This document shows positions 5,693 to 57,181 of a stretch of 64,000 bases of DNA, in pieces. The notes under the pieces were generated by a model. The model saw only the letters and a list, made by a program, of their open reading frames with translations. It had not been told where the DNA came from and made no database searches. The stretch's first letter is position 1. Each line of letters opens with the position of its first letter. The DNA comes from Candidatus Dormibacteria bacterium (GTDB lineage Bacteria > Chloroflexota > Dormibacteria > Aeolococcales > Aeolococcaceae): the NCBI GenBank assembly GCA_050734155.1, contig JBOHUD010000064.1, positions 138,181-202,180 of the forward strand, read 5' to 3'. A program made the translations under genes and the position numbers.

Positions 5693-6853
5693 TCACACTC
5701 CGCTCACGTTGACGGGGACGCGAGGCACCCGCGCCGACACCGCGCAGAGCACCTCATAGGAGATTGTGCCGATCCGGGCGGCGACGGCGGCGGCGTCGAC
5801 TCGGTGGCCGCCCTCCTCCCCGATCAGGGTGACGGCGTCGCCGGCGTGCACCTCGCCGGCGTCGCTGACGTCGACCGCCAGCTGGTCCATGCTGATGCGT
5901 CCGATCATCGGGCAGACCGCGCCGCCGGCGATCACCACCCCGCGGTTGCCGTTGCGCCGGTCGACGCCGTCGGCGTAGCCCGCCGCGATCGTCGCCACCC
6001 GGGTGCGACGGGGCGCGATCCACTCCCTCCCGTAGCCGACGCTGTCGCCGGGGCCGACCTCCTTGACCAGGCTGACCAGCGCGCGCACGCGCAGGGCGGG
6101 ACGGACCTCGACGACTCCCTCGCAGCAGCTCGGGGGGTACCCGTAGAGGGCGATGCCCGGCCTGACCATGTCGTGGTGGGTGCCGGGCAGGCGCAGGGCC
6201 GCGGCGCTGTTGGCGCAGTGCACCAGCGCGCCGCCGAAGTCCTCGCGCAGCGCTGACAGCGCGGCCACGAAGCGCTCGTGCTGCGCGAGCGTGAACTCGG
6301 TCGAGGCGTCGTCGGCGGAGGCGAAGTGGGTGCACAGGCCGGCCACCTCGACGTCGCCGCGGGCGGCAAGCAGCGCGTCGCGCATCGCGGCTGTCTCCTC
6401 GGGACGGCTGCCCAGGCGTCCCATGCCGGTGTCGAGCTTCCAGTGCACCCGCAGCGGCCTGCCCTCCCGGCGAGACGCCTGGCGCGCGGCCCCCACCTGA
6501 GCCGGCGCGAACACCGCGACGTCGACGCCGTGCACCGTCGCCGCCGCCATCTCCGACGGCATCGTCCAGCCGGTGTTGAGGATCCGAGCCGTGACCCCGG
6601 CGCGGCGCAGCTCCACCGCCTCGGTGACCGACGACACCCCCAGCCAGGTCGCGCCTCCCGCGAGCGCGGCGGTGGCCGCATGGAGCGCGCCGTGGCCGTA
6701 GCCGTTGGCCTTGACCATGGCCATGACCGCGCACCCTTCGCCGGCGAGGCGGCAAAGCGCCGCCGCGTTGTCGCGCAGCGCCGCCATGTCCACCTCTGCC
6801 CACTTGGTCCCCGCCGCCGCGGCGGGGGTGTCGCCACCGGCGTCCAGGCTCAT
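5693..6853 (-). CDS. alr: Alanine racemase
   Basis: 386 aa. PLP-lysine motif AMVKANGYGHG, full N-terminal barrel and C-terminal domain characteristic of Alr. Confidence 0.9.
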   Translation of the reverse strand: MSLDAGGDTPAAAAGTKWAEVDMAALRDNAAALCRLAGEGCAVMAMVKANGYGHGALHAATAALAGGATWLGVSSVTEAVELRRAGVTARILNTGWTMPSEMAAATVHGVDVAVFAPAQVGAARQASRREGRPLRVHWKLDTGMGRLGSRPEETAAMRDALLAARGDVEVAGLCTHFASADDASTEFTLAQHERFVAALSALREDFGGALVHCANSAAALRLPGTHHDMVRPGIALYGYPPSCCEGVVEVRPALRVRALVSLVKEVGPGDSVGYGREWIAPRRTRVATIAAGYADGVDRRNGNRGVVIAGGAVCPMIGRISMDQLAVDVSDAGEVHAGDAVTLIGEEGGHRVDAAAVAARIGTISYEVLCAVSARVPRVPVNVSGV

Positions 6854-11670: not shown

Positions 11671-12510
11671 TCAGGCGCCGACCGCCTTGAGGAAGAGGTC
11701 GGTGCCGTAGCCGGCGAGGAAGCCGCAGAGCAGGCCGAGCATGCCCATGTGGTGGCTGCCGATCTTGCGGTTGACGTGCTGCAGCTCGCCGATCACGTAG
11801 ACGATGGCCCCGGCGGCGAGCCCGAGGAAGAGCACCGACACCGCCTGGCTGGCCAGCGAGGCGCCCACCGCGCGGGTGACGCCGTAGCCGATCAGCGTTC
11901 CCAGGAAGGTGGGCCCGCCGCCCACCACGCCGAGCAGCCCCAGGAACCTCCAGCTGGGCCGCCGGCCGAGCAGCGGCCCGCTGATGCCGAAACCCTCGGT
12001 GATGTTGTGCAGACCGAAACCGATCACCAGCACCAGGAAGAAGCGGTAGGCCCCCGCCGAGGCGGATTGGCCGATGGCGAGGCCCTCCGAGAAGTTGTGC
12101 AGCCCGATCCCGACAGCGATCAGGAGTGCGGTGCGCAGCGGCGCCGGCAGCGGCACTCGTGCCGGGGCCGTCGCCGCGCCGGCGGCCATGGCCCCCGGAC
12201 CGGCGGGCAGCGGGCGGCGCCGGGAGACGCGTTCGAAGCCCACCAGGACGAAGAGGCCAGTCGCCAGCCCGGCGGCGAGGATGAGGCCGAGCCCGGCGCC
12301 CTGTCCCGCCGACCCGCTCAGCCGGCTCTCCACCGCCTCGCTGGCGTTGCGGATGACGTCATAGAAGATGAAGAGGAGGATGCCCACGGACGCCGAGGTG
12401 AGCAGCGACATGACGCGCTGCCCGGGACGCCGCCAGCGGCAGATGGGCAGGCCGAGCAGGATGGTCAGGCCGGCGACCGCTCCCAGGGCGGCGGTCGCTG
12501 CGAAGCTCAT
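11671..12510 (-). CDS. ZIP-family divalent metal cation transporter (ZupT-like)
   Basis: 279 aa, multi-TM. Paired metal-binding motifs LHNFSEGLAIG and LHNITEGFGI typical of ZIP/ZupT. Confidence 0.85.
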   Translation of the reverse strand: MSFAATAALGAVAGLTILLGLPICRWRRPGQRVMSLLTSASVGILLFIFYDVIRNASEAVESRLSGSAGQGAGLGLILAAGLATGLFVLVGFERVSRRRPLPAGPGAMAAGAATAPARVPLPAPLRTALLIAVGIGLHNFSEGLAIGQSASAGAYRFFLVLVIGFGLHNITEGFGISGPLLGRRPSWRFLGLLGVVGGGPTFLGTLIGYGVTRAVGASLASQAVSVLFLGLAAGAIVYVIGELQHVNRKIGSHHMGMLGLLCGFLAGYGTDLFLKAVGA

Positions 12511-12514
12511 GGGC

Positions 12515-12533
12515 TTAGATTAGCCTAACCTAA
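12515..12533. promoter_or_regulatory. DtxR/IdeR-type 19-bp operator (iron box) immediately upstream of the ZIP transporter gene
   Basis: TTAGATTAGCCTAACCTAA vs consensus TTAGGTTAGCCTAACCTAA (18/19). Sits in the 33-nt gap between the regulator stop and the transporter start. Confidence 0.75.
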
Positions 12534-12543
12534 CCCACCCCGA

Positions 12544-13236
12544 TCAGTCCGGAGCCGATTCCACCCAGACGGCGGCCGCCACACCCTCGCTGAGCACCAC
12601 CGGATGCCCCTCGACGACGAGTCGGAGCTGGCCCTCACCCCGGTCGACGACGAGCAGAGACGCCTCCGGCACCACCCCGCCATCGTGGAGCACCGCGAGC
12701 AGGTGGGGAGCGTCGTGCTCGGCCACCTCCGAGATCCGGAAGACTCGCGACCCCACCCCGGTGGGCAGCTCGACCAGGCGCTGCATGGGGCGCCCGGCGG
12801 GCGCGCGCCGCCCCGGGATGACGTTGCCGTGCGGACAGGTGGACGGCCGCCCCAGGTGCTCGTCGAGCCGTTCCAGGACCACGTCGGACACGCCGTGCGA
12901 GAGGGCGGCCGCCTCGCGGTCGGCGGTCGCCCAGTCGAGCCCGAGGACGTCGGTCAGCCAGCGTTCGATGAGCCGGTGGCGGCGCACCACGGCGGCGGCG
13001 GCCACCCGCCCGGCGTCGGACAGGTGGACGCTGCGATCCTCGGCCACGGTCACCCAGCCGTCGCGGGCCAGGCGCTGCAGGCTGACCGTCACCGTGGGGG
13101 CGCTCACCCCCAGCCACTCGGCGATCCGTCCCGGGCGGGGCACGTCGCCCTCGTGCTCGATGTAGTAGATGGTCTCCAGGTAGCGGTCGGCCACCTCGGA
13201 CCGGGCGCCGGTCACAGCGGTCTGGCTCATCGCCAC
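12544..13236 (-). CDS. DtxR/IdeR/MntR-family metal-dependent transcriptional regulator with C-terminal SH3-like/FeoA domain
   Basis: 230 aa. N-terminal wHTH (YLETIYYIEHEG..RIAEWLGVSAPTVTVSLQRL), metal-site residues, dimerisation helix, SH3-like C-terminal domain. Confidence 0.88.
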   Translation of the reverse strand: MAMSQTAVTGARSEVADRYLETIYYIEHEGDVPRPGRIAEWLGVSAPTVTVSLQRLARDGWVTVAEDRSVHLSDAGRVAAAAVVRRHRLIERWLTDVLGLDWATADREAAALSHGVSDVVLERLDEHLGRPSTCPHGNVIPGRRAPAGRPMQRLVELPTGVGSRVFRISEVAEHDAPHLLAVLHDGGVVPEASLLVVDRGEGQLRLVVEGHPVVLSEGVAAAVWVESAPD

Positions 13237-15958: not shown

Positions 15959-17001
15959 CGGTAGTGCTGCGCCGCGGTGGAGGGCAGGGTCATCTCCATG
16001 CCCGCGCGATGCTCCAGGAGTCGCACTCCCGTGCCCGCCCGGAGCACGCCCGCCTGGCGCAGGGGCGCCAGGTGGGGCGGCCATTCCGAGAGCAGGCGGC
16101 CGGCATCCGCAGCTGTCACCGCGGCCACGAGCTCGAAGTCCTCGCCGCCGCCGAGCGCAAGTTCGAGCCACCCTCGACCAAAACGGCCGGCCAGCTGGGT
16201 GTCCACGGGGAGGCTGTCGGCCCAGAGCTCGATCGCACAGCCGCAGGCGCGCGCCGTGCGGGCGGCGTCGAGAAGCAGCCCGTCGCTGATGTCGCCCCCG
16301 CAGCGGACACCGGCATCGAGGAGGTGGCGCCCCTCGGCCACGCGCATGGTGGGCTCGAGCTGGGCGGCGATCCACCGCTCCTCGACCGGGGTCGCCGGCG
16401 CCCGGCCGTCTCTCAGCAGGCGCAGACCCGCCGCGGCGCGGCCGAGCACGCCGGTCACCAGCAGCGCGTCGCCAGGCCGGCCCGCGGAGCGGCGCAGCGC
16501 CAGGCCGCAGGGGAGCGTGCCGGTGAGACAGACGTCGAGCACCAGGGGGCCGTCGATGGCGCTGACGTCACCCCCGGCCACCGCGCACCCCGCCGCGGCG
16601 GCCGCCTCGCAGAGGCCACGCTGGATCTCGAGGATGTCCTCGAGGTGCTCCGACCCGCGCGCACAGAGCGTGGCCAGGCAGTGCGTGGGCCGGGCACCCG
16701 TCCCGGCCATGTCGGAGACCGCCACCGCGAACGCCCGTCTGCCCAGCTGCCGCGGGGTGATCCAGCTGCGCCGGAAGTCGACGTCCTCGACCAGGCAGTC
16801 GATGCTGACCGCCAGGTCGCTGCCCTGGGGGGCAGCCCAGACGGCGGCATCGTCGCCATGCAGCCCGGCGAGCGCCGGACCGCCGGCGGCCGCGGCGATC
16901 TCCACCAGGCTCTCGAGGAGCGCGCTCTCCCCGACCTCAGCGAGCGTCGGTCCGCCGGCGCCGAAACGCCGCCGCGTTGGGGCCGGAGGGGTCTCGGACA
17001 T
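15955..17001 (-). CDS. thiL: Thiamine-monophosphate kinase ThiL
   Basis: 348 aa AIR-synthase-related fold. GDDAAVW...DLAVSIDCLVEDVDF, AVSDMAGTGARP. Confidence 0.88.
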   Translation of the reverse strand: MSETPPAPTRRRFGAGGPTLAEVGESALLESLVEIAAAAGGPALAGLHGDDAAVWAAPQGSDLAVSIDCLVEDVDFRRSWITPRQLGRRAFAVAVSDMAGTGARPTHCLATLCARGSEHLEDILEIQRGLCEAAAAAGCAVAGGDVSAIDGPLVLDVCLTGTLPCGLALRRSAGRPGDALLVTGVLGRAAAGLRLLRDGRAPATPVEERWIAAQLEPTMRVAEGRHLLDAGVRCGGDISDGLLLDAARTARACGCAIELWADSLPVDTQLAGRFGRGWLELALGGGEDFELVAAVTAADAGRLLSEWPPHLAPLRQAGVLRAGTGVRLLEHRAGMEMTLPSTAAQHYR

Positions 17002-17171
17002 CGCCGTCCTACTCTACGGATTGGCCGTCCGCCACCCGTGGCGAGCGTTTCCGCCAACTCCGTCCGCTGCCGCCCGAGCCTCGCAGCGATCGCCTCGGGA
17101 CGGCAGGGCTGAGCGGGCGCGGTCCCGCTCGGTTGCATTAGGTCCCTCCGAACCTCTATCGTGCCGCCGCG

Positions 17172-18317
17172 TTGCAGGGGCCCGCACCCCGCGCTCGCTT
17201 CATCGGATTCAGGACCTCGTCTACGGGGACCGGAGGGCACCTATTGCGGGGTACGCGAAAGCTTCTCTCGATCGCGGTCGGCTGTGGTGCCCTTCTCAGC
17301 ATCGGCATCACCGCCATCCCCACCGGACAGGCGAACACCACCAAGACCTCCGCCCTGGTGGCCCGACGGGCCCAGCTGCTGGCGCAGCTGGCGGCCCTCC
17401 AACCCGCCAAGAACAGCGCCACCTCAGCTCTGGCTGCGGCGGAGAACGCCTTCGCAGCGGCTCAGGCCAAGCTGCTGGCAGCGCAGACCCAGCTGGCCTC
17501 CCTGAACTCCCGCCTTCTGGCCCTCAATGGCCAGATCACCAGTGATGAGGCGACGATCGTCACGGCCAAGCAGGACCTGGCCACGCTCACCCGCCAGAGC
17601 TACGAGAGCACGACCACCGATTCATGGGTGGCGGCGGTGCTCAGCGCCCGCACCTTCGGCCAGGCGGTGGACCGGCTCGCGGGCACCTCGCACGTGGCGG
17701 AGCAGGTCGGCAAGCTGCAGACCAGCGTGCGCGCCAAGGAGGCCGCGATCATCAGCGAGAAGGCGGAGATCCAGAAGGACGCTGCCATGTCGACCGCCCT
17801 CGAGGGGCAGCTAGCCGCGGACAGCAACGCGCTGCTCATGCTGGTCGACGCCCGCAACGCCGCCCTCCAGGTGGCCAGCGCCCCGGCGCGTGCCATCGAG
17901 GAGCAGATCGCCGAGATCGACCAGGAGCTCGCCGCGGGCAATGCCCCGCCGCAGCGGGGCGGCGGTTCCTCCTGCGCCAACCACTTCGCCTATGGACAGT
18001 GCACCTGGTACGTCGCCAGCCGGCGCTGCATCCCCTGGGTGGGCAACGCCGACCAGTGGTATGGCAACGCCGCCAGGATGGGCTACCCCGAGGGCCACCA
18101 GCCGCAGGTCGGGGCGGTGGTCAGCTTCTGGCCCGGCGGCGACGGCGCCAGCAGCATCGGCCATGTCGGCTACGTCGAGGCGGTGGGGCCGGCGTCGGGC
18201 GTGCCCGCCGGGGAGTTCAAGTTCTCGGAGATGAACTACAACGGGTGGGACCGCGTCGACTATCGCGTTCTTCCCGACAACTCCTCGGGCATCCAGGGGT
18301 TCATCTACTCGAAGTAG
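17172..18317 (+). CDS. Secreted coiled-coil protein with C-terminal CHAP-domain peptidoglycan amidase/peptidase
   Basis: Signal-peptide-like RKLLSIAVGCGALLSIGITAIPTGQA. Long Ala/Gln-rich coiled coil. CHAP catalytic Cys (GQCTWYV) and His (SSIGHVGYVE). The true start may be downstream of 17172. Confidence 0.8.
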   Translation: MQGPAPRARFIGFRTSSTGTGGHLLRGTRKLLSIAVGCGALLSIGITAIPTGQANTTKTSALVARRAQLLAQLAALQPAKNSATSALAAAENAFAAAQAKLLAAQTQLASLNSRLLALNGQITSDEATIVTAKQDLATLTRQSYESTTTDSWVAAVLSARTFGQAVDRLAGTSHVAEQVGKLQTSVRAKEAAIISEKAEIQKDAAMSTALEGQLAADSNALLMLVDARNAALQVASAPARAIEEQIAEIDQELAAGNAPPQRGGGSSCANHFAYGQCTWYVASRRCIPWVGNADQWYGNAARMGYPEGHQPQVGAVVSFWPGGDGASSIGHVGYVEAVGPASGVPAGEFKFSEMNYNGWDRVDYRVLPDNSSGIQGFIYSK

Positions 18318-18335
18318 GCCGGCGAGCGCCCGCGC

Positions 18336-19253
18336 TCACCGGGAGCGCCGGCTCTCCAGGGCCCGACGCGTGCGCTCCTGGGCGGGAGGGAGCTCGTCGA
18401 GCAGATCGCGGGGCAGTACGCCCGCGCGGCCGAGCCGGTCCTGCACCGCCAGCGCCGCCTCGGCGTGGACGAACACGGCCGCCACCGCGGCATCGAACGG
18501 AGCCAGGCCCTGGGCCAGGAACGCCGCCAGCAGCCCGGAGAGCACGTCACCGGTGCCGCCAGTGGCCAGCGCGACCACGCGGAGGTCGCTGAGGTGCACC
18601 GTGCCCGCGGGATCGGCGACGACGGTGTTGCTGCCCTTGAGCACGACCACGGCCCCGCTGGTGGCGGCGTACTCCACGGCGAGCCGGCGGCGCCCGGCCT
18701 GCACCTCGGCGGTGCTGAGCCCGCAGAGGCGGCCCATCTCCGCGGGGTGGGGGGTGAGCACCGCGGGCCCGGAGCACGACCGCCAGTCGAAGTGCCGCGC
18801 CGCGGCGATGTTGAGGCCGTCGGCATCGACCACGACCGGGGCGCGGAGCCCAGGCAGAAGCTCGACGAGGAGCTGCTCGGTGCCCGGGGCGCGGCCCAGG
18901 CCGGGACCGACCACGATCGCCGAGGCGTCGGCCAGGTGCTGGTCGCGCAGCGGGCCCAGCGCCGCCGGGGCCAGCCCTCCGCCGGCGTCGGGCAGGGGGT
19001 GGGCCATGATCTCGAGGGTCTGGGCAGCGACCGCCGGGTGGATCGACGCGGGCACGCAGAGTCGCACCTTGCCCGCGCCCCCGCGCGCCGCCGCCATGGC
19101 GCTCATCAGCGGGGCTCCGCTGAACCCCAGCGCCCCGCCGACGACGGCCACGGTGCCGAAGGTGCCCTTGTGGGCGTCAGCGGGGCGATCTGCGAGACGC
19201 AGGCCGGCGGGCACCTCGGCGAACGTCCTGGGGATGCCGCTGGCGCCGCTCAC
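18336..19253 (-). CDS. nnrD: NAD(P)H-hydrate dehydratase (YjeF C-terminal domain, ADP-dependent)
   Basis: 305 aa. GTFGTVAVVGG, DADGLN, GGTGDVLSGLLAAFLAQG. Start ATG 19253 overlaps the glmS stop (ATGA). Confidence 0.85.
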   Translation of the reverse strand: MSGASGIPRTFAEVPAGLRLADRPADAHKGTFGTVAVVGGALGFSGAPLMSAMAAARGGAGKVRLCVPASIHPAVAAQTLEIMAHPLPDAGGGLAPAALGPLRDQHLADASAIVVGPGLGRAPGTEQLLVELLPGLRAPVVVDADGLNIAAARHFDWRSCSGPAVLTPHPAEMGRLCGLSTAEVQAGRRRLAVEYAATSGAVVVLKGSNTVVADPAGTVHLSDLRVVALATGGTGDVLSGLLAAFLAQGLAPFDAAVAAVFVHAEAALAVQDRLGRAGVLPRDLLDELPPAQERTRRALESRRSR

Positions 19254-21088
19254 TCCACCGTGACCGACTTGGCGAGGTTGCGGGGCTGGTCGACGTCACA
19301 GCCGCGCTCCACCGCCACGTGGTAGGCGAAGAGCTGCAGGGGAACAACGTTGACCAGCGGCGAGATCAGCTCCTCGGTGAGCGGCACCTCGACGAGATCG
19401 CGGACGAAGCCGGCATCGAAAGGATTCTCACCCTCACTGACCAGGGCGATCACCGGGGCGTCGCGCGAGCTGACCTCCTGGATGTTGCTGACCATCTTCG
19501 CCAGCGTGCCCGAGCGCGTGGCCATCGCCACCACCGGCACGTCGGGGTCGAGCAGGGCGATGGGGCCGTGCTTGAGCTCCCCGGCGGCGTACCCCTCGGC
19601 GTGGATGTAGGAGACCTCCTTGAGCTTCAGCGCGCCCTCGAGCGCCACCGGGAAATTGATCCCGCGACCGATGTACATGGCGTTGCGCGTGTGCGCGTAG
19701 CGCTGCGCCATCTCGGCGAGCTGCGGCTCCAGCTGGAGGGCGCGTTCGATCAGCGCCGGGGCCTCCATCATGGCGCTGGTGTGGCGGCGGTGCTCGTCGT
19801 CGGACAGCACCGAGCGGGCCTCCCCGAGGCGAAGGGCGAGGAGCATCCCGCAGGCCATCTGGGTGAGCATCGTCTTGGTGGCGGCGACACAGATCTCCGG
19901 CCCCGACTGCATGTAGACGACGCCTTCGGCCTCCATGGAGAGGGCGCTGCCGACGACGTTGGTGACGGCGACGACCCTGGCCCCCTGGCGCCGCGCCTCG
20001 CGCACCGCGGCGAGGGTGTCGGCGGTCTCTCCCGACTGTGAGAAGGCCACCACCAGGGTGTGCTCATCGAGGAGCGGGTCGCTGTAGCGGAACTCGCTGG
20101 CCGGCTCGACGTCGCAGCGCACCCGCGCCAGGCTCTCGATGGCGTACTTGGTCACCAGCCCCGCGATCCACGCGGAGCCGCACGCCACGATGGTGACCTG
20201 GTGGAGACTGCGCAGATGGGTGTCGTCGAGGAGGATGTCGGGAAGATCGACGAGCCCGCTGTCGTCGATGCGCCCGCGCAACGCGCTGCGCAGCGCCTCG
20301 GGCTGGTCGTGGATCTCCTTGAGCATGAAGTGGGGAAAGCCGTTCTTCTGAGCCTGTTCCGCCTCCCAGGTGACCGCGATGACGCGGGCCTCGACAGCCA
20401 TGCCGTCGAGGCTGGTGATGCTCACCCCGTCGGGTGACGCCGCGGCCAGCTCTCCCTCGCCGAGCAGGACGACACGCTTGGTGTAGGGGATCAGCGCGGT
20501 GATGTCACTGCTGATGAAGATCTCGCCGTCGCCGAGCCCCACCACCAGTGGCGCGTTGAATCGCGCCCCGACGATGCGACCGGGCTCGTCCGCGCTGATC
20601 GCCACCAGCGCGTAGGCGCCGCGGATGCGCTGCAGGGCGGCGCGGACCGCTGCTGCCAGGTCGCCCGTGTGGTTGTGCTCGATGAGGTGGGGCACCACCT
20701 CGGTGTCGGTGTCGCTGCTGAACTCGTGGCCCGCGGCGGCGAGCTCAGCACGCAGCTCGCGGTGGTTCTCGATGATCCCGTTGTGGATGATGTGGATCCG
20801 CCCCGTGCAATCCCGATGGGGATGCGCATTGACGACGGTGGGCCGGCCGTGGGTCGCCCAGCGAGTGTGCCCGATGCCGGTGTGCCCCCGGGGGACGCCG
20901 CTGCGCTCCAGCTGAGTGATGAGGTCGGCCACCTTGAGGTTGCTCTTGGCCACCGCGGTGGCGCCCCCGTCCTCGTCGAGCACCGCGATGCCCGCCGAGT
21001 CGTAGCCTCGGTACTCGAGGCGCTGCAGGCTGTCGAGGAGCACGGGGGCGGCCTGGCGCGGCCCCGAGTAGCCGATGATCCCGCACAT
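19250..21088 (-). CDS. glmS: Glutamine--fructose-6-phosphate aminotransferase (isomerising) GlmS
   Basis: 612 aa. MCGIIGY N-terminal nucleophile, two SIS domains, C-terminal ...KSVTVE. Confidence 0.96.
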   Translation of the reverse strand: MCGIIGYSGPRQAAPVLLDSLQRLEYRGYDSAGIAVLDEDGGATAVAKSNLKVADLITQLERSGVPRGHTGIGHTRWATHGRPTVVNAHPHRDCTGRIHIIHNGIIENHRELRAELAAAGHEFSSDTDTEVVPHLIEHNHTGDLAAAVRAALQRIRGAYALVAISADEPGRIVGARFNAPLVVGLGDGEIFISSDITALIPYTKRVVLLGEGELAAASPDGVSITSLDGMAVEARVIAVTWEAEQAQKNGFPHFMLKEIHDQPEALRSALRGRIDDSGLVDLPDILLDDTHLRSLHQVTIVACGSAWIAGLVTKYAIESLARVRCDVEPASEFRYSDPLLDEHTLVVAFSQSGETADTLAAVREARRQGARVVAVTNVVGSALSMEAEGVVYMQSGPEICVAATKTMLTQMACGMLLALRLGEARSVLSDDEHRRHTSAMMEAPALIERALQLEPQLAEMAQRYAHTRNAMYIGRGINFPVALEGALKLKEVSYIHAEGYAAGELKHGPIALLDPDVPVVAMATRSGTLAKMVSNIQEVSSRDAPVIALVSEGENPFDAGFVRDLVEVPLTEELISPLVNVVPLQLFAYHVAVERGCDVDQPRNLAKSVTVE

Positions 21089-21181
21089 GACAGAGCGTCA
21101 ACGCCTCCTGGAATTCGCTGGTTACTTACGTTTGGCGCGTTCGGCAGGCTCCGCGCGAATCGAGGCCGGCGCCGAACCGGG

Positions 21182-22186
21182 CTAGTGGGTTGGCGACGGT
21201 GTGGGTGACGTTGAGGGTGTGGGCGTCGCGCTCGTAGACGGCTGGGGGATGGCGTTGACGGTGACGCTGACCGTCACCGTGCCCGGGGTGGCGGTGACCC
21301 CGGCGGGCGAGACGATGTGGACAGTGAAGCTCACCGTCCCGGTGACCCCGTTGAGGCTGATGGTGTCGGTGGGGATCGAGTCCAGGGTGTTGAGCAGGTC
21401 CTGGGGCCCGTTGAGCACCACCGTGGGCGGGCTGACGCTCTCCGCTGCCAGGTAGTGCCCTGCCGGCGGCGACCCGGACACCCTGGGCAGCACCGCGCTG
21501 GCACGAGAGGTCAGGCTCGCCGCCACGTCGACGGTGACCAGGACCTCGCCCTGGGGATTGCCGGCCACGGTCAGGCCGAAGCTTCCCAGCGGCTGCCCGT
21601 TGGTGTCGACGAGCTGCACCCTCTGGTTGACCTGGAAGTTGGTCTTCTGGCTGCCCAGGTTGACGGTCACCCGAGCCTCCACGTTGGCGAGCTCGTGGCG
21701 CGGACCGATCACCGTGACGGTGCTCGGGCTGGTGGAGCTGCTCACCACCACGTAGCCCTGGGGCGGGTTGGTGGCGACGTTGACGGTCACCCCCACCTTG
21801 CGGGAATCGAGGCGGTCCACCTCGGCGACCACGCTGGTCGGAGGGCTGTCGAGGATGACGTCGCGATCGTTGTTGATCACCGACACGGCCAGGTTCTGGA
21901 CCCCGGCGTGGGTGATCGCCTTGTAGTCGACGGTCACCGCCAGGTCGGCGGGGTCGAAGGCGTTGAGATGCTCGCGGGTTCCGCTCACCCGGATCACCAG
22001 GGGGGCGATGGCATGAACCAGCACCCAGGGGGCGACCTCGGCATCGCTCTGGGGCACCTTGATGGTCACCGAGCGCGTGTCCGGCGGGTTGCTGGCATAG
22101 GCGACGCCGGCCCACAGCACCGTGGCAAGGGCCGCGGCCAGCCCCTTGAGACGCAGGTTGCGGGTGGCGAAGCCGGGCAGTCTCAT
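21182..22186 (-). CDS. cdaR: CdaR (YbbR-like domain protein, regulator of CdaA) with Ser/Thr/Pro-rich C-terminus
   Basis: 334 aa. N-terminal TM anchor, repeated beta-rich YbbR-like modules (VTVDYK..., VTVNVAT..., VTVNLGS...). Start overlaps the cdaA stop (ATGA at 22183-22186). Confidence 0.75.
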   Translation of the reverse strand: MRLPGFATRNLRLKGLAAALATVLWAGVAYASNPPDTRSVTIKVPQSDAEVAPWVLVHAIAPLVIRVSGTREHLNAFDPADLAVTVDYKAITHAGVQNLAVSVINNDRDVILDSPPTSVVAEVDRLDSRKVGVTVNVATNPPQGYVVVSSSTSPSTVTVIGPRHELANVEARVTVNLGSQKTNFQVNQRVQLVDTNGQPLGSFGLTVAGNPQGEVLVTVDVAASLTSRASAVLPRVSGSPPAGHYLAAESVSPPTVVLNGPQDLLNTLDSIPTDTISLNGVTGTVSFTVHIVSPAGVTATPGTVTVSVTVNAIPQPSTSATPTPSTSPTPSPTH

Positions 22187-23040
22187 ATGTGCGTCCGGCG
22201 CCGGATGGCGCGCAGCACCGCCGGCCGGGGCACGATCCCCTGGCGCTCGGAGGCGTCGACCCCGGTGAGGCTGATCATGGTGCTGCGCAACGACTTGGAG
22301 TCGAGGCCGCGGGTGATGCGTCCCTCGCGCGCCACGCTGATCAGCCCGGTCTCCTCGCTGACGATGAGCACCACCGCGTCACTCTGCAGCGTCAGGCCCA
22401 CGGCGGCCCGGTGTCGCGTGCCCATCCGGCCCACCCCGGGGATGGTCTCGGCGAGGGGGAGAACGCAGCCGGCGGCGATCAGCCGCGCGTTGCGGATGAT
22501 CACCGCCCCGTCGTGCAGCGAGGTGCCGGGCATGAAGATGGTGGCCAGCATCTCCGCCGTCACCTCGCCGTCGATGCGCACCCCGGTGGCGGCGATGTTC
22601 TCCAGTCCCGTCTCACGCTCGAACACCACCAGGGCCCCGGTCTTGCGCTCGCTCAGCGACGAGGCTGCGCGAATCACCTCGTCGACCGATCGCTGCGCGT
22701 CGACGCCGGCGTGCTGGCCGAGCAGCGAGCGCACCGGGCCGAGCCGTCCGACCTGGTCGAGGGCGCGGCGCAGCTCCGGCTGGAAGAGGATGACCGCCGC
22801 GATCACGATCGCCTGGCCGCCGTTGCGAAAGATGAACTGGAGGAGGCGCAGGTTGAGCGCCTCGGCGGCGAGGCCCACGGCGATGATCACGCCGAGGCCG
22901 ACCAGGAGCTGCACCGCCTGCGTGCCGCGGATCAGCTTGAGCAGCTGGTAGAGCAGGATGGCGACGAGGAGGACGTCGAGGACGTCGCGCCAGCCGACGC
23001 TCTGCAGGAAGATGAGCGCGTCGTGCCAGATCGCGCTCAT
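22183..23040 (-). CDS. cdaA: Diadenylate cyclase CdaA (membrane-anchored DisA_N/DAC domain)
   Basis: Real start MSAIWHDALIF at ATG 23040 (286 aa). Three N-terminal TM helices. DAC motifs DGAVIIRN and GTRHRAAVGLTLQSDAVVLIVSEETGLISVA. The ORF-track ORF is extended 94 codons upstream over argF. Confidence 0.9.
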   Translation of the reverse strand: MSAIWHDALIFLQSVGWRDVLDVLLVAILLYQLLKLIRGTQAVQLLVGLGVIIAVGLAAEALNLRLLQFIFRNGGQAIVIAAVILFQPELRRALDQVGRLGPVRSLLGQHAGVDAQRSVDEVIRAASSLSERKTGALVVFERETGLENIAATGVRIDGEVTAEMLATIFMPGTSLHDGAVIIRNARLIAAGCVLPLAETIPGVGRMGTRHRAAVGLTLQSDAVVLIVSEETGLISVAREGRITRGLDSKSLRSTMISLTGVDASERQGIVPRPAVLRAIRRRTHI

Positions 23041-24002
23041 GGCGCGGTCACGGCGGCGCGCGCGCTGGGCTCGGGGACTGCCTCGTACACCAGCGCCAGC
23101 AGGGCCATCTGCGCCCACAGCCGGTTCTCGGCCTGGTCGAACACCACCGACTGGGGGCCGTCGAGGACGGAGTCGGTGATCTCCTCGCCCCGATGGGCGG
23201 GCAGGCAGTGCATGACCCGCGCTCCCGAGGGGGCGAGCCCCAGCAACCTGTCGTTGACCTGGAGGTGGCCGAAGTCCTGGCGGCGGCGCTGCTGCTCCGC
23301 CTCCTGGCCCATGCTCGTCCACACATCGGTGTAGACGATGTCGGCGTCGCGCAGGGCCGGAGCCGGGTCATGTCCGACGCTCCAGCCGGTGCCGTTGCTG
23401 CGCAGTCGCGCCGCGGCGGTGAGCACGGCCTCGGCCGGCTCGTACCCCGGCGGGCAGACGATGCGCAGGTCGACGCCGCAGATGGCCGCGGCGTAGAGCC
23501 ACGATGCGCAGACGTTGTTGCCGTCGCCGATGTAGGCCACCCGCGCTCCCCCCAGCCGTCCGGTGGTCTCGAGCACGGTGAGGAGGTCGGCGAGGAGCTG
23601 GCAGGGATGCTCGGCGTCGGTCATGGCGCTGATCACCGGGCCCCTCACCGCAGCCGCGATGGCGACCAGGTCGCGCTGCGAGACGACGCGGGCGATGACC
23701 CCGTCGGCGTAGCGGTCGAGGATGCGGGCGATGTCCGTGGCCGTCTCGCGCTCACCGAGGCGGATCTCCTCGCCGAAGAGCGCGATGGGGTGGCCGCCGA
23801 GGCGGTTGATGGCCACCTCGAAGGAGACCCGCGTCCGGTTGCTGGGGCGCTGAAAGATGAGCGCCAGGTTGCGTCCCCGCAGCGGCGTGCCCAGGTCCGC
23901 TCCCCGCTTGGCTCGCCCGGCGAGGTCGAGAACGGTGGCGATCTCGTCCCGACCGAGATCGGCGATGCTGAGCAGGTCGCGACCGAGGAGCGCAGGGGAC
24001 AT
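23037..24002 (-). CDS. argF: Ornithine carbamoyltransferase-like transcarbamylase
   Basis: SNRTR (variant of STRTR), SFEVA, HPCQLLADLLT, DVWTSMGQE, HCLPAH motifs in OTC order. Probable start MSPALLG (ATG ~24002). Stop overlaps the cdaA start (ATGA). Confidence 0.8.
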   Translation of the reverse strand: MSPALLGRDLLSIADLGRDEIATVLDLAGRAKRGADLGTPLRGRNLALIFQRPSNRTRVSFEVAINRLGGHPIALFGEEIRLGERETATDIARILDRYADGVIARVVSQRDLVAIAAAVRGPVISAMTDAEHPCQLLADLLTVLETTGRLGGARVAYIGDGNNVCASWLYAAAICGVDLRIVCPPGYEPAEAVLTAAARLRSNGTGWSVGHDPAPALRDADIVYTDVWTSMGQEAEQQRRRQDFGHLQVNDRLLGLAPSGARVMHCLPAHRGEEITDSVLDGPQSVVFDQAENRLWAQMALLALVYEAVPEPSARAAVTAP

Positions 24003-24059
24003 GGGGCAAAAACCAGTATATGAGCGCAACCAGAATGCGCCTGAACTCAGCGACACGGG

Positions 24060-25073
24060 ATGCGCGTCCGTTCCCTGCCCGCTAGGGTTGGCACCGTGAA
24101 CATCGTCGTCGTCGTCGCCGGCGGGCTCACCGAGATGCTACAGGCTGCACCGCTCATCGCGGCCCTGCCCAGCGTCACCGGTGAGCCCCTGCTCGTGGTC
24201 GGGTCCAGCCGGGCTGCCGAGCTGTCCCCGGGCCTGAGCGGTGCCCACGAGTTCATCTCCGTCCCCGGGCTCGGCTCACGACCGGGGATGCTCAGCCTGG
24301 TCCGTCTGTGGTCGGAGTTGCGCGGGCGCCGCCTGGATGCTGCGGTGATCTGCAGCGAACGGGCGGCGGTGCGCGCGGCCGTGTACGAGGCCGGGGTGCC
24401 GCGCCGGATCGGCTGCGCGGGCGGGCTCAGCGATCGCCTGCTCACCGACCGCGTGCCCCGCGCGCCGGATGGCAACCGCGCTCGCTCCTGGCTGGCACTC
24501 GCCGGTCCGTTCCAGGCGCTCGCCGAGGCGACCGGCCGCGAGTTCCTGCCCAGCGAGGAGGCCACCAGGTCGGCGGAGCAGCTGCTCCTCAGCAACGGGG
24601 CCGGCGACGGACGCCTGCTGGTGGCGATCGCTCCCGGTCAGGGCTTCGCCCACCCCGAGGTGCCCGCCTGGGGAGCGGAGCGCTTCGCCCACCTCGCCAA
24701 CCGCCTGGCCACGCGCCATGGGGCCGGGGTCATCCTGATCGGTGACGAGCGCGACCGTGTCGCCGTGGAGGCGATGCGTCTCGACCTGGCGGCGGACCCG
24801 GTGGACCTCTGCGGCGAGCTCGACCTCGGCACGGTCGCCGCGGTGATGGCGCGCTGCGACCTGGTGATCGGCACCGACACCCCGCTCCTCCATCTCGCCG
24901 CTGCCGTGGGCACCGCCTCGGTGGGGCTGTTCGGCCCCTCCAGCGGCCGCGCCCGGGCACCGGCCGGGGGCGAGCACCGCGTGGTGCAGGCGCTGCCCAA
25001 CGGTCGGGGGCCCGCCAGCCTCGAGCGCATCCGCGTCGACGACGTCCTCGCCGGCATCGAGAGCGTGCTCTAG
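24060..25073 (+). CDS. Glycosyltransferase family 9 (ADP-heptose:LPS heptosyltransferase-like)
   Basis: 337 aa. GT9 C-terminal signature LVIGTDTPLLHLAAAVGTASVGLFGPSS (cf. TDSGPMHLAAALGTP..FGPT). Confidence 0.75.
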   Translation: MRVRSLPARVGTVNIVVVVAGGLTEMLQAAPLIAALPSVTGEPLLVVGSSRAAELSPGLSGAHEFISVPGLGSRPGMLSLVRLWSELRGRRLDAAVICSERAAVRAAVYEAGVPRRIGCAGGLSDRLLTDRVPRAPDGNRARSWLALAGPFQALAEATGREFLPSEEATRSAEQLLLSNGAGDGRLLVAIAPGQGFAHPEVPAWGAERFAHLANRLATRHGAGVILIGDERDRVAVEAMRLDLAADPVDLCGELDLGTVAAVMARCDLVIGTDTPLLHLAAAVGTASVGLFGPSSGRARAPAGGEHRVVQALPNGRGPASLERIRVDDVLAGIESVL

Positions 25074-25127
25074 CCAGAGGAGGCGCGCGACTGTCGCAAA
25101 CGCGGCGGCGGTCATGATGGCGCCCGC

Positions 25128-25773
25128 ATGCTCCCCCGACCACGCGCGCGCCGCGTTCTCCAGCTCTTCGCCGGGCTCGTGCTCTACGGGGTCAGCGACG
25201 GCATGCTGCTGCTCGGCGGCCTCGGCGTCGACCCCTGGGACGTGCTGCACCAGGGGCTCTCACGACGAACCGGGATCGCCGTGGGCACCTGGGCGATCGT
25301 GGTCGGCGTGGTGGTGCTGCTCCTCTGGATTCCGCTGCGACAGCGCCCCGGGCTGGGCACGCTGGCCAACGCCATGGTCATCGGCGTGGTCATCAACGTG
25401 GTGCTGGCGGTGGCTCCCACCCCGCGCGGAGTGCCCCTCCAGCTGGTGGTAATGCTCGGCGGCGTCGGCCTCAACGGGCTCGCCACCGGCGCGTACATCG
25501 GGGCCGGTCTCGGTCCGGGCCCGCGCGACGGGTTGATGACCGGGCTCGCATCGCGCGGCCACTCGCTGCCTGGTGCGCACCAGCATCGAGCTGAGCGTGC
25601 TGGTCGGCGGATGGCTCCTCGGCGGCACGGTCGGCCTGGGCACGGTGGTCTACGCGCTCGCGATCGGTCCCCTGGCGCAGATCTTCGTGCCCATGCTGGC
25701 GGTCGATCGCGCACAGAGACCGTCGCGGCCAGCGCCGCGATCGCTCATCGAGGGCACCCCGCGGGCCAACTGA
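25128..25773 (+). pseudogene. YczE/YitT-like integral membrane protein, apparently frameshifted near 25545-25565
   Basis: N-terminal part in the frame of 25128 (...GLGVDPWDVLHQGL...GLMTGLASRGH). The conserved continuation RCLVRTSIELSVLVGGWLLGGTVGLGTVVYALAIGPL is in the +1 frame (ORF 25573..25773). Frame 1 has a stop at 25537-25539, so a 1-nt indel is required. Confidence 0.6.
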
Positions 25774-56122: not shown

Positions 56123-57181
56123 TCAGGCGCCGGCCACAGTCAGCGTGACCGAGCGCGCCGCCCCGGTGGCACCGATGACCGCGAGGACCGCCCGGTCGCC
56201 CACCAGCAGGCCGAAGGCACCGGGCTGGAGGGCGCCCGCGGAGAGCAGGGTGGTGCCGTTGACCGAGGTGACCACGTCGCCGGGCTGGAGCAGCCCGACC
56301 GCAGCACCGGTGGGGCTGACCGAGCGGATCAGCGCGCCCTGGGACACCCCGGTGGCCGCGGACACCGCGGGGTCCACCAGGAAGCTGGTCACCCCGAAGG
56401 AGGCCGCCCCGGCCGGTGCGCCGCGCTGCACGCCGCTCACCAGCCGGGCGGCGTCCCGGCCCGAGGCCGCGGTCAGCCCCGACGCCGCGGGCACGGTGGT
56501 GACCACCCCGGTGACCGCCCCGGTGCCGTCGACCAGCGGTGCGCCGTCAGCCTGCGGGGCGGAGGTGGCGTCGACTGTGAGCAGGTCGGTGAGCTCCGCC
56601 TCGCCGTCGTTGGCGGTCATGGCCACGGCGTCGACCACCCCGCTGCGCGTCGTGGTTGTGCCCAGGGCCGGCCGGAACACCGCCACCGCCAGGTCGCCGA
56701 TGCGCGGGTCCTGGGCGGCGAAGCGCAGGGGTGTGAGTCCTGCCGCCCCGGCCGCGCGCAGCACCACGATGCCGTCGGCCACGTCGCTGGCCGCGATGGT
56801 GGCGTTGTAGCCGCGACCGTCAGCGGTGGCCACGCGCAGGCGGGTGGCGCCGCGCACGGCGTGGGCCGAGGTGACGATCAGGCCATCGCCGCTGACCGCG
56901 AACCCCTGGGTCAGCCCGGTCGCCGAGCCGGTGGCCAGCGCCCCCGGGGTGACCGCCGCGGTGCTGACCGTGACCAGCGAGGGCAGGACGGAGGTGGCGA
57001 TGTCGCCGACCGACACCGCCCCGCCGCCGGTCTTGGTCTGGGTGATGACCCGCTCCACCGGGCCGAAGTGGCTGTACACGCCCCAGGCGCCCAGCCCCCC
57101 GCCGACCACGCCGACGCAGGCGCTGAGCACCACGGCGGCGAGCAGGCGTGTTCCCGAGGCGCGAGCGCCCGCCGCCTTCAC
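56123..57181 (-). CDS. HtrA-like trypsin/PDZ protein with N-terminal TM anchor; catalytic Ser replaced by Asp (probable pseudoprotease)
   Basis: 352 aa. His context TSAHAV retained. The block aligning to NPGNSGGPLV reads SAPQADGAPLV (GNSGG->QADGA). PDZ-like C-terminus. Start overlaps the downstream MBL gene by 4 nt. Confidence 0.7.
   Translation of the reverse strand: MKAAGARASGTRLLAAVVLSACVGVVGGGLGAWGVYSHFGPVERVITQTKTGGGAVSVGDIATSVLPSLVTVSTAAVTPGALATGSATGLTQGFAVSGDGLIVTSAHAVRGATRLRVATADGRGYNATIAASDVADGIVVLRAAGAAGLTPLRFAAQDPRIGDLAVAVFRPALGTTTTRSGVVDAVAMTANDGEAELTDLLTVDATSAPQADGAPLVDGTGAVTGVVTTVPAASGLTAASGRDAARLVSGVQRGAPAGAASFGVTSFLVDPAVSAATGVSQGALIRSVSPTGAAVGLLQPGDVVTSVNGTTLLSAGALQPGAFGLLVGDRAVLAVIGATGAARSVTLTVAGA

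What the first reader, a model, noticed from the sequence alone, without database searches (positions are those of the whole stretch)
18336..24002. A c-di-AMP module (cdaA-cdaR) is wired to a transcarbamylase, glmS and an NAD(P)HX dehydratase by overlapping codons
On the minus strand, an argF-like gene, cdaA, cdaR, glmS and an nnrD-like gene are co-directional. The stop/start codons overlap as ATGA at argF/cdaA (23037-23040), cdaA/cdaR (22183-22186) and glmS/nnrD (19250-19253), with a 93-nt gap between cdaR and glmS.

The canonical arrangement is cdaA-cdaR-glmM(-glmS) in Firmicutes. Here glmS directly follows cdaR and no glmM is present.

An ornithine-transcarbamylase-like gene is translationally coupled upstream of the cyclase, which I do not know as a described arrangement.

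Surrounding synteny (tsaEBD-groESL, rpmE-prfA-hemK-sua5-glyA-wecA-atp, DUF222/HNH, UPF0182) is actinobacterial, where c-di-AMP is usually made by DisA rather than membrane CdaA. This points to a deep-branching high-GC lineage or an unusual c-di-AMP wiring.
Basis: partly seen in the sequence, partly recalled or inferred. Interest (0 to 1): 0.75.

Follow-up and report, generated by a model that had tools for sequence, protein, structure and literature searches.

The report
Dormibacteria cdaA–cdaR–glmS cluster lacking glmM
This is an ordinary c-di-AMP synthase operon (cdaA-cdaR) sitting in its ancient, widely conserved neighbourhood in a Candidatus Dormibacteria genome (not an actinobacterium); it differs from the textbook version only by lacking glmM and by having the arginine-pathway gene argF coupled in front.

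Summary
The five genes, their order and the junctions are real, with one correction: the glmS/nnrD overlap is GTGA, not ATGA. All five pass curated family thresholds.

The genome is Candidatus Dormibacteria (phylum Dormiibacterota, allied to Chloroflexota), not Actinobacteria. A membrane CdaA is therefore not out of place.

Comparative synteny explains the cluster. Chloroflexota of the Limnocylindria keep the full ancestral block, rplM-rpsI-TPR-cdaA-cdaR-glmM-glmS-acpS-nnrD-alr…tsaE-tsaB-rimI-tsaD. The window is a slice of that block.

Two features are lineage-specific:
- glmM is missing between cdaR and glmS in all 18 Dormibacteria loci with downstream sequence. Among 80 cdaA loci from other genomes it is missing only in the two nearest relatives.
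- argF sits directly upstream with a conserved 4-nt overlap in nearly all core Dormibacteria. One locus clearly lacks it. argF is also near cdaA in 6 of 11 informative Chloroflexota, against 1 of 43 Bacillota.

Four-nt overlaps are common here (10 of 51 co-directional pairs, including unrelated genes), so they show tight packing rather than functional wiring. No glmS ribozyme, c-di-AMP riboswitch, glmM or disA occurs in the window. The location of glmM in Dormibacteria was not found.

Verdict: a new variant of a known operon, of modest interest.

The parts
23037..24002 (-). argF, ornithine carbamoyltransferase (321 aa); first gene of the co-directional block
   Evidence: OTCace_N plus OTCace. 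TIGR00658 scores 343.7 bits against a cutoff of 280.85, whereas the putrescine, N-acetylornithine and aspartate transcarbamylase models fall below their cutoffs. Catalytic motifs are present in the translation. The public gene call is the same.
22183..23040 (-). cdaA, membrane diadenylate cyclase (285 aa); start ATG overlaps the argF stop (ATGA 23040-23037)
   Evidence: TIGR00159 scores 225 bits against a cutoff of 188.8. CdaA_N and DAC domains are present. The HDGA and GTRHRAA motifs are present. The junction was read. The overlap is kept as A/GTGA in L002, L003, L005 and L090-L104.
21182..22186 (-). cdaR, YbbR-domain regulator of CdaA (334 aa; N-terminal hydrophobic segment, Pro/Thr/Ser-rich tail); start overlaps the cdaA stop (ATGA 22186-22183)
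   Evidence: Pfam YbbR at 76.6 bits with two stretches. Translation. Junction. cdaR follows cdaA in every Dormibacteria locus.
21089..21181 (-). 93-nt cdaR-glmS spacer: the position where glmM sits in other lineages
   Evidence: Sequence. No Rfam family is found, so no glmS ribozyme. It folds no better than shuffled sequences (z = +1.69). No terminator-like or sigma-70-like site is found. Its length varies among relatives (36, 39, 110 nt) with no clearly conserved element.
19250..21088 (-). glmS, glutamine-fructose-6-phosphate aminotransferase (612 aa; starts Met-Cys)
   Evidence: TIGR01135 at 778.5 bits, with GATase_6/7 and two SIS domains. It is directly downstream of cdaR in 18 of 18 Dormibacteria loci that include downstream sequence.
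18336..19253 (-). nnrD, ADP-dependent NAD(P)HX dehydratase (305 aa); GTG start overlaps the glmS stop (GTGA 19253-19250)
   Evidence: Carb_kinase at 192 bits and TIGR00196 at 201.7 bits. Junction. It aligns to residues 109-410 of the acpS~nnrD fusion found in relatives.
24003..24059 (-). 57-nt divergent intergenic region between GT9 (plus strand) and argF, holding a -10-like TATACT (24020-24015) 12 nt before the argF ATG. This is a putative operon promoter with a very short leader (inferred).
   Evidence: Sequence. The core 'GCGnCCATA(T/G)(A/G)' is conserved in L002, L003 and L005. It was NOT detected by the consensus promoter scan, so the evidence is weak.

Best explanation
The block argF-cdaA-cdaR-glmS-nnrD is a housekeeping gene cluster of a Candidatus Dormibacteria genome.

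Its core, cdaA-cdaR, is the canonical membrane-bound c-di-AMP synthase with its YbbR-domain regulator.

It sits where it does because of descent. The cluster is a slice of an old, conserved Bacillati ('Terrabacteria') gene-order block: r-proteins-rpoA-rplQ-truA-rplM-rpsI-(TPR)-cdaA-cdaR-glmM-glmS-acpS-nnrD-alr-…-tsaE-tsaB-rimI-tsaD(-groESL). This block is still intact in Limnocylindria (Chloroflexota).

Changes on the Dormibacteria lineage:
- glmM was lost or relocated from between cdaR and glmS. This left cdaR followed directly by glmS across a variable 36-110-nt spacer.
- In the window's clade, the cdaA-cdaR-glmS part is no longer attached to the ribosomal-protein cluster.
- In the same clade, argF lies immediately upstream, overlapping cdaA by 4 nt.

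How it most likely works (inferred, not shown):
- argF, cdaA and cdaR are probably co-transcribed from a promoter in the 57-nt region upstream of argF.
- They are probably translationally coupled through the two start/stop overlaps.
- glmS-nnrD may read through from that transcript or start in the spacer.
- CdaA makes c-di-AMP from two ATP, and CdaR modulates it from the outer face of the membrane.
- GlmS supplies GlcN-6-P for cell-wall precursors.
- The known Firmicute control of CdaA by GlmM, if it exists here, must come from a glmM encoded elsewhere.
For: Identities.

Organism.

The same order, GT9(-)|argF-cdaA-cdaR-glmS-(acpS~)nnrD|CHAP(-)|thiL-tsaE-tsaB-rimI-tsaD, occurs in Dormibacteria contigs at 70-81% CdaA identity and in 17 metagenome loci at 67-93% identity.

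Intact ancestral block with glmM: Limnocylindria loci L088 and L089, and L021, L071, L073, L028 and L085.

Intermediate state, rplM-rpsI-cdaA-cdaR-glmS-acpS~nnrD-alr, with neither argF nor glmM: L008 and L107.

In an 80-locus sample across phyla:
- glmM lies downstream of cdaA in 33 loci.
- cdaR is followed by glmS without glmM only in L008 and L009, the two nearest relatives of the window's clade.

In a core-like Dormibacteria contig, rplM-rpsI is followed by unrelated genes, consistent with a rearrangement.

Literature: the conserved three- or four-gene cdaA-cdaR-glmM(-glmS) operon of Firmicutes and GlmM inhibition of CdaA (PMC6368335; PMC10636490).

The 4-nt overlaps at argF/cdaA and cdaA/cdaR are conserved across relatives.
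Against: - Co-transcription is not shown. No transcript data exist, the consensus scan found no promoter, and the -10-like element rests on four aligned sequences.
- The location of glmM, and hence 'relocated' versus 'replaced', was not established. It is absent from the window, from +/-10 kb of cdaA in all Dormibacteria loci, and from downstream of rpsI in L108.
- The recurrence of argF next to cdaA in several Chloroflexota with different downstream genes (L012, L017, L074) is more than pure drift of gene order would predict. A functional reason for that pair is therefore not excluded.
- The order of evolutionary events is inferred without a species tree.
Confidence: 0.8

Rival explanations
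1. Functional argF-cdaA module. In Chloroflexota and Dormibacteria, ornithine carbamoyltransferase is deliberately co-expressed with the c-di-AMP synthase, or interacts with it. This would tie c-di-AMP production to arginine and nitrogen (glutamine/glutamate) status. With glmM gone from the operon, ArgF and/or GlmS would take over the metabolic input that GlmM gives in Firmicutes.
For: - argF lies within 5 kb upstream of cdaA on the same strand in 6 of 11 informative Chloroflexota loci, against 1 of 43 Bacillota and none of the other phyla sampled.
- The pair persists with different downstream partners: der in L012 and L017, glmM-glmS in L073 and L028, glmS in Dormibacteria.
- The 4-nt overlap is kept in essentially all core Dormibacteria loci.
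- GlmS appeared among DacA co-purifying proteins in S. mutans (PMC13289029).
- Glutamine and glutamate levels are reported to affect c-di-AMP levels in Firmicutes (discussion in PMC6368335).
Against: - L101 (82% CdaA identity) has GT9(-)|cdaA-cdaR-glmS-nnrD with no argF.
- L008 and L107, and the Limnocylindria, lack argF at the locus.
- In Chloroflexia a TPR gene separates argF from cdaA, and in L045 a 759-aa gene does.
- 4-nt overlaps also join unrelated genes in this window.
- No paper linking OTC to CdaA was found.
- The ArgF is a fully canonical OTC with no extra domain.
Confidence: 0.12
2. One reading: an actinobacterial (DisA-type) genome that has acquired or retained an unusual membrane CdaA, newly wired to a transcarbamylase, glmS and nnrD.
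For: - The surrounding genes (tsaEBD-groESL, prfA-prmC-sua5-glyA-wecA-atp, DUF222, UPF0182) and about 72% G+C resemble Actinobacteria.
- No glmM is present in the window.
Against: - The CdaA is identical to a Candidatus Dormibacteria MAG protein, and its 120 nearest homologues (66% identity or more), where named, are all Dormibacteria.
- The next nearest are Chloroflexota and Dormiibacterota at 53%.
- The same 'actinobacterial' synteny, with cdaA-cdaR-glmM in it, is present in Limnocylindria.
- The cluster shows no compositional anomaly.
Confidence: 0.02
3. Adjacency without an operon. The five genes are packed tightly only because the genome is compact. Each functional unit (argF; cdaA-cdaR; glmS; nnrD) has its own promoter and regulation.
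For: - Overlaps are common in the window (10 of 51 pairs).
- A 93-nt spacer of variable length precedes glmS.
- The glmS-nnrD junction is not conserved as an overlap in relatives: gaps of 4-29 nt in L002, L005 and L007.
Against: - Start and stop codons that overlap leave no room for an intergenic promoter or terminator between argF, cdaA and cdaR.
- No terminator-like site occurs in 17000-25500.
- The order and the overlaps are conserved down to 67% CdaA identity.
Confidence: 0.06

Closest known systems
Firmicute cdaA(dacA)-cdaR(ybbR)-glmM(-glmS) operon (B. subtilis, S. aureus, L. monocytogenes)
   Same: - Same CdaA family (TIGR00159) with an N-terminal membrane domain.
- The same YbbR-domain CdaR follows immediately, with overlapping codons.
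- glmS is downstream on the same strand.
- The link to cell-wall amino-sugar synthesis is shared.
Sources; PMC6368335; PMC10636490.
   Different: - glmM, the gene whose product inhibits CdaA in Firmicutes, is absent from the cluster. cdaR is followed directly by glmS (18 of 18 Dormibacteria loci).
- No glmS ribozyme precedes glmS.
- argF is coupled upstream.
- nnrD is coupled downstream.
Chloroflexota (Limnocylindria) block rplM-rpsI-TPR-cdaA-cdaR-glmM-glmS-acpS-nnrD-alr…tsaE-tsaB-rimI-tsaD (loci L088, L089 found here)
   Same: Same genes in the same order and orientation from cdaA to tsaD. This is the nearest intact form of the window's neighbourhood.
   Different: Relative to that block, the window:
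- lacks glmM, the acpS domain or gene, and the TPR gene;
- has alr displaced (5693-6853);
- is detached from the ribosomal-protein cluster;
- has argF upstream and a CHAP hydrolase plus thiL inserted before tsaE.
Cyanobacterial lysA-cdaA-uppS operon
   Same: It is a precedent for a phylum-specific operon in which an amino-acid-pathway gene sits directly upstream of cdaA and is co-transcribed with it (PMC5986932).
   Different: The partner genes differ (lysA and uppS versus argF, cdaR and glmS). Cyanobacterial cdaA lacks an adjacent cdaR. lysA has a direct peptidoglycan (DAP) connection, which argF lacks.
Actinobacterial rplM-rpsI-glmM … glmS … nnr-alr-tsaE-tsaB-rimI-tsaD-groES-groEL neighbourhood (e.g. 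M. tuberculosis Rv3443c-Rv3417c; from my own knowledge, not tested here)
   Same: glmS, nnr, alr, tsaEBD and groESL are co-directional and close together.
   Different: Actinobacteria of that type have no cdaA-cdaR there and make c-di-AMP with DisA. glmM is retained next to rpsI, whereas it is absent there in the Dormibacteria-like contig L108.

Membership tests
CdaA-type diadenylate cyclase (TIGR00159 / DAC, PF02457) | A DAC catalytic domain scoring above the curated equivalog threshold, with the DGA and RHR motifs | tested here: met
   TIGR00159 at 225.2 bits against a cutoff of 188.8. CdaS, CdaM and DisA models fall below their cutoffs. PF02457 E = 5.4e-40. HDGA and GTRHRAA are present in the translation.
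CdaA-type diadenylate cyclase (TIGR00159 / DAC, PF02457) | N-terminal transmembrane domain (CdaA_N) | tested here: met
   PF19293 CdaA_N E = 6.2e-10, above the gathering score.
CdaA-type diadenylate cyclase (TIGR00159 / DAC, PF02457) | Synthesis of c-di-AMP from ATP | not testable with these tools
   This needs an enzyme assay or nucleotide measurement.
cdaA-cdaR-glmM(-glmS) operon as defined in Firmicutes | cdaR (a YbbR-domain protein) immediately downstream of cdaA | tested here: met
   YbbR at 76.6 bits. ATGA overlap at 22186-22183.
cdaA-cdaR-glmM(-glmS) operon as defined in Firmicutes | glmM (phosphoglucosamine mutase, PGM_PMM I-IV) downstream of cdaR | tested here: not met
   - No PGM_PMM domain or signature motif occurs anywhere in the window.
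- tblastn with Bacillus GlmM finds none in any Dormibacteria locus, while it finds glmM in 33 of 80 other cdaA loci.
cdaA-cdaR-glmM(-glmS) operon as defined in Firmicutes | glmS as the optional fourth gene downstream | tested here: met
   TIGR01135 at 778 bits, 93 nt after cdaR.
cdaA-cdaR-glmM(-glmS) operon as defined in Firmicutes | Co-transcription from one upstream promoter | not testable with these tools
   Only indirect evidence is available: overlapping codons, no terminator-like site, and a conserved -10-like element upstream of argF.
Anabolic ornithine carbamoyltransferase (ArgF, TIGR00658) | Score above the equivalog cutoff and below the cutoffs of sister transcarbamylases, with carbamoyl-phosphate and ornithine-binding motifs | tested here: met
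   - 343.7 bits against a cutoff of 280.85.
- The putrescine model scores 258 against 500, N-acetylornithine 153 against 288, and aspartate 143 against 237.
- SNRTR, HPCQ, DVWTSMG and HCLPAHRGEE are present.
NAD(P)HX dehydratase (NnrD, YjeF C-terminal domain, TIGR00196) | Carb_kinase/YjeF_C domain above the curated cutoff | tested here: met
   201.7 bits against a cutoff of 129.85. There is no epimerase (YjeF_N) domain and no ACPS domain in this copy.
glmS ribozyme-controlled glmS (Rfam RF00234) | A ribozyme in the glmS 5' leader | tested here: not met
   No Rfam family reaches its gathering score anywhere in the window. The spacer is 93 nt and unstructured.

The most novel reading that the evidence does not exclude
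In Dormibacteria, and patchily across Chloroflexota, the metabolic input to the essential c-di-AMP synthase has been rewired. With glmM removed from the operon, CdaA would instead be stoichiometrically co-produced with, and regulated by, ornithine carbamoyltransferase and/or GlmS. These are two enzymes that sense glutamine-derived nitrogen flux. c-di-AMP output would then track arginine and amino-sugar nitrogen status rather than GlmM state.
Probability: 0.1. Interest if true: 0.6.

Novelty: new variant of a known kind. Interest (0 to 1): 0.3.

Why it matters
For annotation and for the scan, the result removes an apparent anomaly. A membrane CdaA in an 'actinobacterial-looking' genome is simply the normal state of Dormibacteria and Chloroflexota. 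The neighbourhood is an old Bacillati gene-order block, not new wiring.

Two points are of modest biological interest.

- Dormibacteria are a natural case in which cdaA-cdaR has been uncoupled from glmM. GlmM is the only well-characterised protein inhibitor of CdaA. This lineage could therefore show how CdaA is controlled without operon-encoded GlmM.

- The argF-cdaA pairing recurs across Chloroflexota and is translationally coupled in Dormibacteria. I found no description of it in the literature I could search. It gives a concrete, testable hypothesis for a nitrogen or arginine input into c-di-AMP signalling.

Neither point is established as functional here.

Tried and rejected
- glmS ribozyme or c-di-AMP (ydaO) riboswitch: an Rfam scan of the whole window gave no hit. 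The spacer folds worse than shuffled sequences. Rejected.

- Conserved regulatory motif in the cdaR-glmS spacer: an apparent 'ACGTAAC' in several relatives largely coincides with the cdaR stop codon and its context, and the spacer length varies. Not pursued.

- Consensus promoter and terminator scan of 17000-25500: nothing found.

- Locating glmM of Dormibacteria, which failed by four routes:
  (a) a motif regex over six frames of the window gave only a spurious antisense hit;
  (b) Pfam on all window genes found none;
  (c) a homology search with the Limnocylindria GlmM of L021 returned only Limnocylindrales and Chloroflexota proteins;
  (d) on the guess that glmM follows rplM-rpsI as in Actinobacteria, the RplM search and look-ups showed rpsI followed by cdaA (L107) or by NTP-transferase/WecG genes (L108), never by glmM.

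It gave a broad but arbitrary sample rather than all Dormibacteria. Class-level conservation was therefore taken from the look-up of encoding contigs and the metagenome scan instead.

- The review papers by Galperin (2023) and Commichau (2019) on DAC distribution are not held in the library.

- The ARG-box (ArgR operator) upstream of argF was inspected by eye only. No convincing palindrome was seen and no claim is made.

Full report
**1. The observation**

ORF listing, a GC3-based gene caller and direct reading of the junctions confirm five co-directional minus-strand genes.

| Gene | Coordinates |
|---|---|
| nnrD | 18336-19253 |
| glmS | 19250-21088 |
| cdaR | 21182-22186 |
| cdaA | 22183-23040 |
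| argF | 23037-24002 |

The public gene calls of the source assembly give the same boundaries.

- CdaA: TIGR00159 at 225 bits against 188.8.
- ArgF: TIGR00658 at 344 bits against 281.
- GlmS: TIGR01135 at 778 bits.
- NnrD: TIGR00196 at 202 bits against 130.
- CdaR: YbbR at 77 bits.

Catalytic motifs are intact. CdaA has HDGA and GTRHRAA. ArgF has SxRTR, HPxQ, DxxxSMG and HCLP. GlmS starts Met-Cys.

The argF/cdaA and cdaA/cdaR junctions are ATGA overlaps as stated. The glmS/nnrD junction is GTGA, not ATGA. The cdaR-glmS gap is 93 nt.

**2. Is the overlap pattern special?**

In this window, 10 of 51 co-directional neighbour pairs overlap by exactly 4 nt. These include pairs with no functional relation: thiL/tsaE, glyA/GT4, and APH/acyl-CoA dehydrogenase.

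Three overlaps in four junctions is above the background of 7 in 47 (P about 0.01, my arithmetic). This argues for a tight transcription unit, but not by itself for functional 'wiring'.

**3. Whose genome is it?**

The CdaA is 100% identical to a protein of an NCBI MAG labelled Candidatus Dormibacteria. The 120 best database hits (66-100% identity) are, wherever named, Dormibacteria, Dormibacteraeota or Candidatus Aeolococcus.

NCBI taxonomy places the class in phylum Candidatus Dormiibacterota, kingdom Bacillati. The next nearest CdaA sequences, at about 53% identity, come from a 'Chloroflexi bacterium' and a 'Dormiibacterota bacterium'.

The actinobacterial premise, and with it the 'CdaA where DisA is expected' surprise, therefore falls away.

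**4. The rest of the window**

Pfam on essentially all genes gives the following:

- uvrA, UPF0182, two metallo-beta-lactamase-fold genes, pyrG, glpX, an HtrA-like protease, DUF222;
- a radical-SAM gene, DUF1385, prfA, prmC, sua5, glyA, a GT4 gene, the atp operon;
- APH, acyl-CoA dehydrogenase, DeoC, murA-like EPSP-fold gene, mreB, a 2-hydroxyacid dehydrogenase, YczE-like gene, GT9(+);
- the cluster itself;
- CHAP(+), thiL, tsaE, tsaB, rimI, tsaD, ideR, ZIP, groES, groEL, asnB, alr, CN-hydrolase, uvrD-like helicase, ligA.

There is no glmM, disA or c-di-AMP phosphodiesterase. There is no tRNA and no Rfam family.

**5. Conservation inside Dormibacteria**

Four independent contigs at 70-81% CdaA identity show the same arrangement: GT9(-)|argF-cdaA-cdaR-glmS-(acpS~)nnrD|CHAP(-)|thiL-tsaE-tsaB-rimI-tsaD. 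Seventeen metagenome loci at 67-93% identity agree wherever sequence is available.

- cdaR is followed by glmS with no glmM in 18 of 18 loci.
- The A/GTGA overlaps at argF/cdaA and cdaA/cdaR are kept in the loci where the junctions could be read.
- The cdaR-glmS spacer varies (36, 39, 93, 110 nt). It is unstructured and carries no clearly conserved element.
- One locus, L101, has GT9(-) directly before cdaA with no argF.
- One short contig, L098, also lacks argF, but its upstream region is unclear.

**6. Outside Dormibacteria**

A scan of species-representative genomes with a CdaA alignment returned 80 loci: 13 Chloroflexota, 1 Dormiibacterota, 49 Bacillota and others. I ran tblastn against them with the window's proteins and a Bacillus GlmM.

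- glmM lies downstream of cdaA in 33 of 80 loci. Five of these are Chloroflexota with cdaA-cdaR-glmM-glmS(-nnrD).
- cdaR followed by glmS without glmM occurs only in L008 and L009, the two closest relatives of the window's clade.
- argF lies within 5 kb upstream on the same strand in 6 of 11 informative Chloroflexota, 1 of 43 Bacillota and none of the other phyla.
  - It is adjacent in L012, L017 and L074.
  - It is separated by a TPR gene in the Chloroflexia L073 and L028.
  - It is separated by one large gene in L045.

Limnocylindria contigs display the whole block: adk-map-infA-rpmJ-rpsM-rpsK-rpsD-rpoA-rplQ-truA-rplM-rpsI-TPR-cdaA-cdaR-glmM-glmS-acpS-nnrD-alr-(3 genes)-tsaE-tsaB-rimI-tsaD.

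L008 and the NCBI 'Dormibacteraeota' MAG locus L107 show an intermediate: …rplM-rpsI-cdaA-cdaR-glmS-acpS~nnrD-alr, without argF or glmM. In a 1-Mb Dormibacteria-like contig, rplM-rpsI is followed by unrelated sugar-nucleotide genes.

**7. Interpretation**

The cdaA-glmS and glmS-nnrD links, and the downstream tsaEBD-groESL genes, are inherited neighbourhood from an old block shared with Chloroflexota and, in part, Firmicutes and Actinobacteria. The Firmicute operon is described as cdaA-cdaR-glmM(-glmS) in PMC6368335 and PMC10636490. The actinobacterial order is from my own knowledge.

What is specific to the Dormibacteria lineage is the absence of glmM from the block. What is specific to the window's clade is detachment from the ribosomal cluster, with argF overlapping cdaA.

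Lineage-specific cdaA operons headed by an amino-acid-pathway gene have a precedent in cyanobacteria, where lysA-cdaA-uppS is co-transcribed (PMC5986932).

The mechanism I commit to is as follows.
- argF-cdaA-cdaR form one translationally coupled transcription unit.
- That unit is driven from the 57-nt region upstream of argF, where a -10-like TATACT lies 12 nt before the ATG within a short core conserved in three relatives.
- glmS-nnrD either read through or start in the spacer.
- CdaA/CdaR function as in Firmicutes, and any GlmM control is supplied in trans.

Gene identities and synteny are shown. Transcription, coupling and regulation are inferred.

**8. The open residue**

The argF-cdaA pair recurs in Chloroflexota with different downstream genes, which hints at selection. 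GlmS co-purified with DacA in S. mutans (PMC13289029). Nitrogen status is reported to influence c-di-AMP in Firmicutes (PMC6368335).

Against a required partnership:
- argF is missing in L101, in L008 and L107, and in the Limnocylindria.
- It is separated from cdaA by another gene in Chloroflexia.
- The ArgF is an unremarkable OTC.
- No paper was found linking OTC with CdaA.

I give the functional-module reading about 0.1.

**9. Not resolved**

- The location of glmM in Dormibacteria.
- Whether a second argF exists.
- Transcript structure.

**10. Verdict**

The feature is a lineage-specific variant of a known, conserved c-di-AMP operon neighbourhood. Interest is modest (0.3).

Noticed in passing
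window 18336-19253 (nnrD); compare L002 13745-14977, L003 13773-15020, L107 14764-15990, L088 13207-14759: In most Dormibacteria relatives the gene after glmS is a 408-415-aa fusion of holo-ACP synthase (ACPS) with NnrD. In Limnocylindria, acpS and nnrD are separate adjacent genes. In this window the ACPS part is precisely missing: nnrD aligns from residue 109 of the fusion. No ACPS-like sequence exists anywhere in the 64 kb. L091 (89% CdaA identity) shares the loss. The location of the essential acpS is unknown.
   Followed up: partly
L101 1-1000 (metagenome contig JAABUX010002303.1): A Dormibacteria relative (82% CdaA identity) has the divergent GT9 gene directly upstream of cdaA, with a 193-nt spacer and no argF. 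This is a natural 'argF-less' version of the cluster.
   Followed up: partly
window 17244-18317 (+): A CHAP-domain, PcsB-like peptidoglycan hydrolase is encoded on the opposite strand between nnrD and thiL. It is conserved at this position in all core Dormibacteria loci (L002, L003, L005, L007) but absent from the Limnocylindria block.
   Followed up: no
window 11671-13236 (-): An IdeR/DtxR-family metal repressor and a ZIP metal transporter are inserted between tsaD and groES. In L007, groES follows tsaD directly.
   Followed up: no
L008 5584-9911; L107 1-10859; L088/L089 1-6700: In the nearest outgroups, cdaA follows the rpsM-rpsK-rpsD-rpoA-rplQ-truA-rplM-rpsI cluster directly or after a small TPR gene. 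The c-di-AMP synthase is thus part of the conserved ribosomal-protein/rpoA super-operon neighbourhood in these lineages. In L108, rpsI is instead followed by NTP_transferase-WecG-GT2 genes.
   Followed up: partly
L012 8948-13639; L017 9040-14090: In two other Chloroflexota MAGs the arrangement is argF-cdaA-cdaR-der (the EngA GTPase), with neither glmM nor glmS within 10 kb. This is a third context for the argF-cdaA pair.
   Followed up: partly
window 49208-50590 (-): A DUF222 protein (typically associated with HNH endonucleases and common in Actinobacteria) is flanked by unusually long non-coding gaps (479 nt on one side). It may be a mobile insertion.
   Followed up: no
window 56123-57181 (-): A 352-aa ORF fills a 1.1-kb stretch that the GC3-based caller left empty, so its codon-position G+C signal is weaker than its neighbours'. 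It has not been annotated.
   Followed up: no
window 1-64000: There is no tRNA gene and no Rfam family at gathering threshold in 64 kb. Almost all genes are on the minus strand, and cumulative GC skew rises steadily across the window.
   Followed up: no
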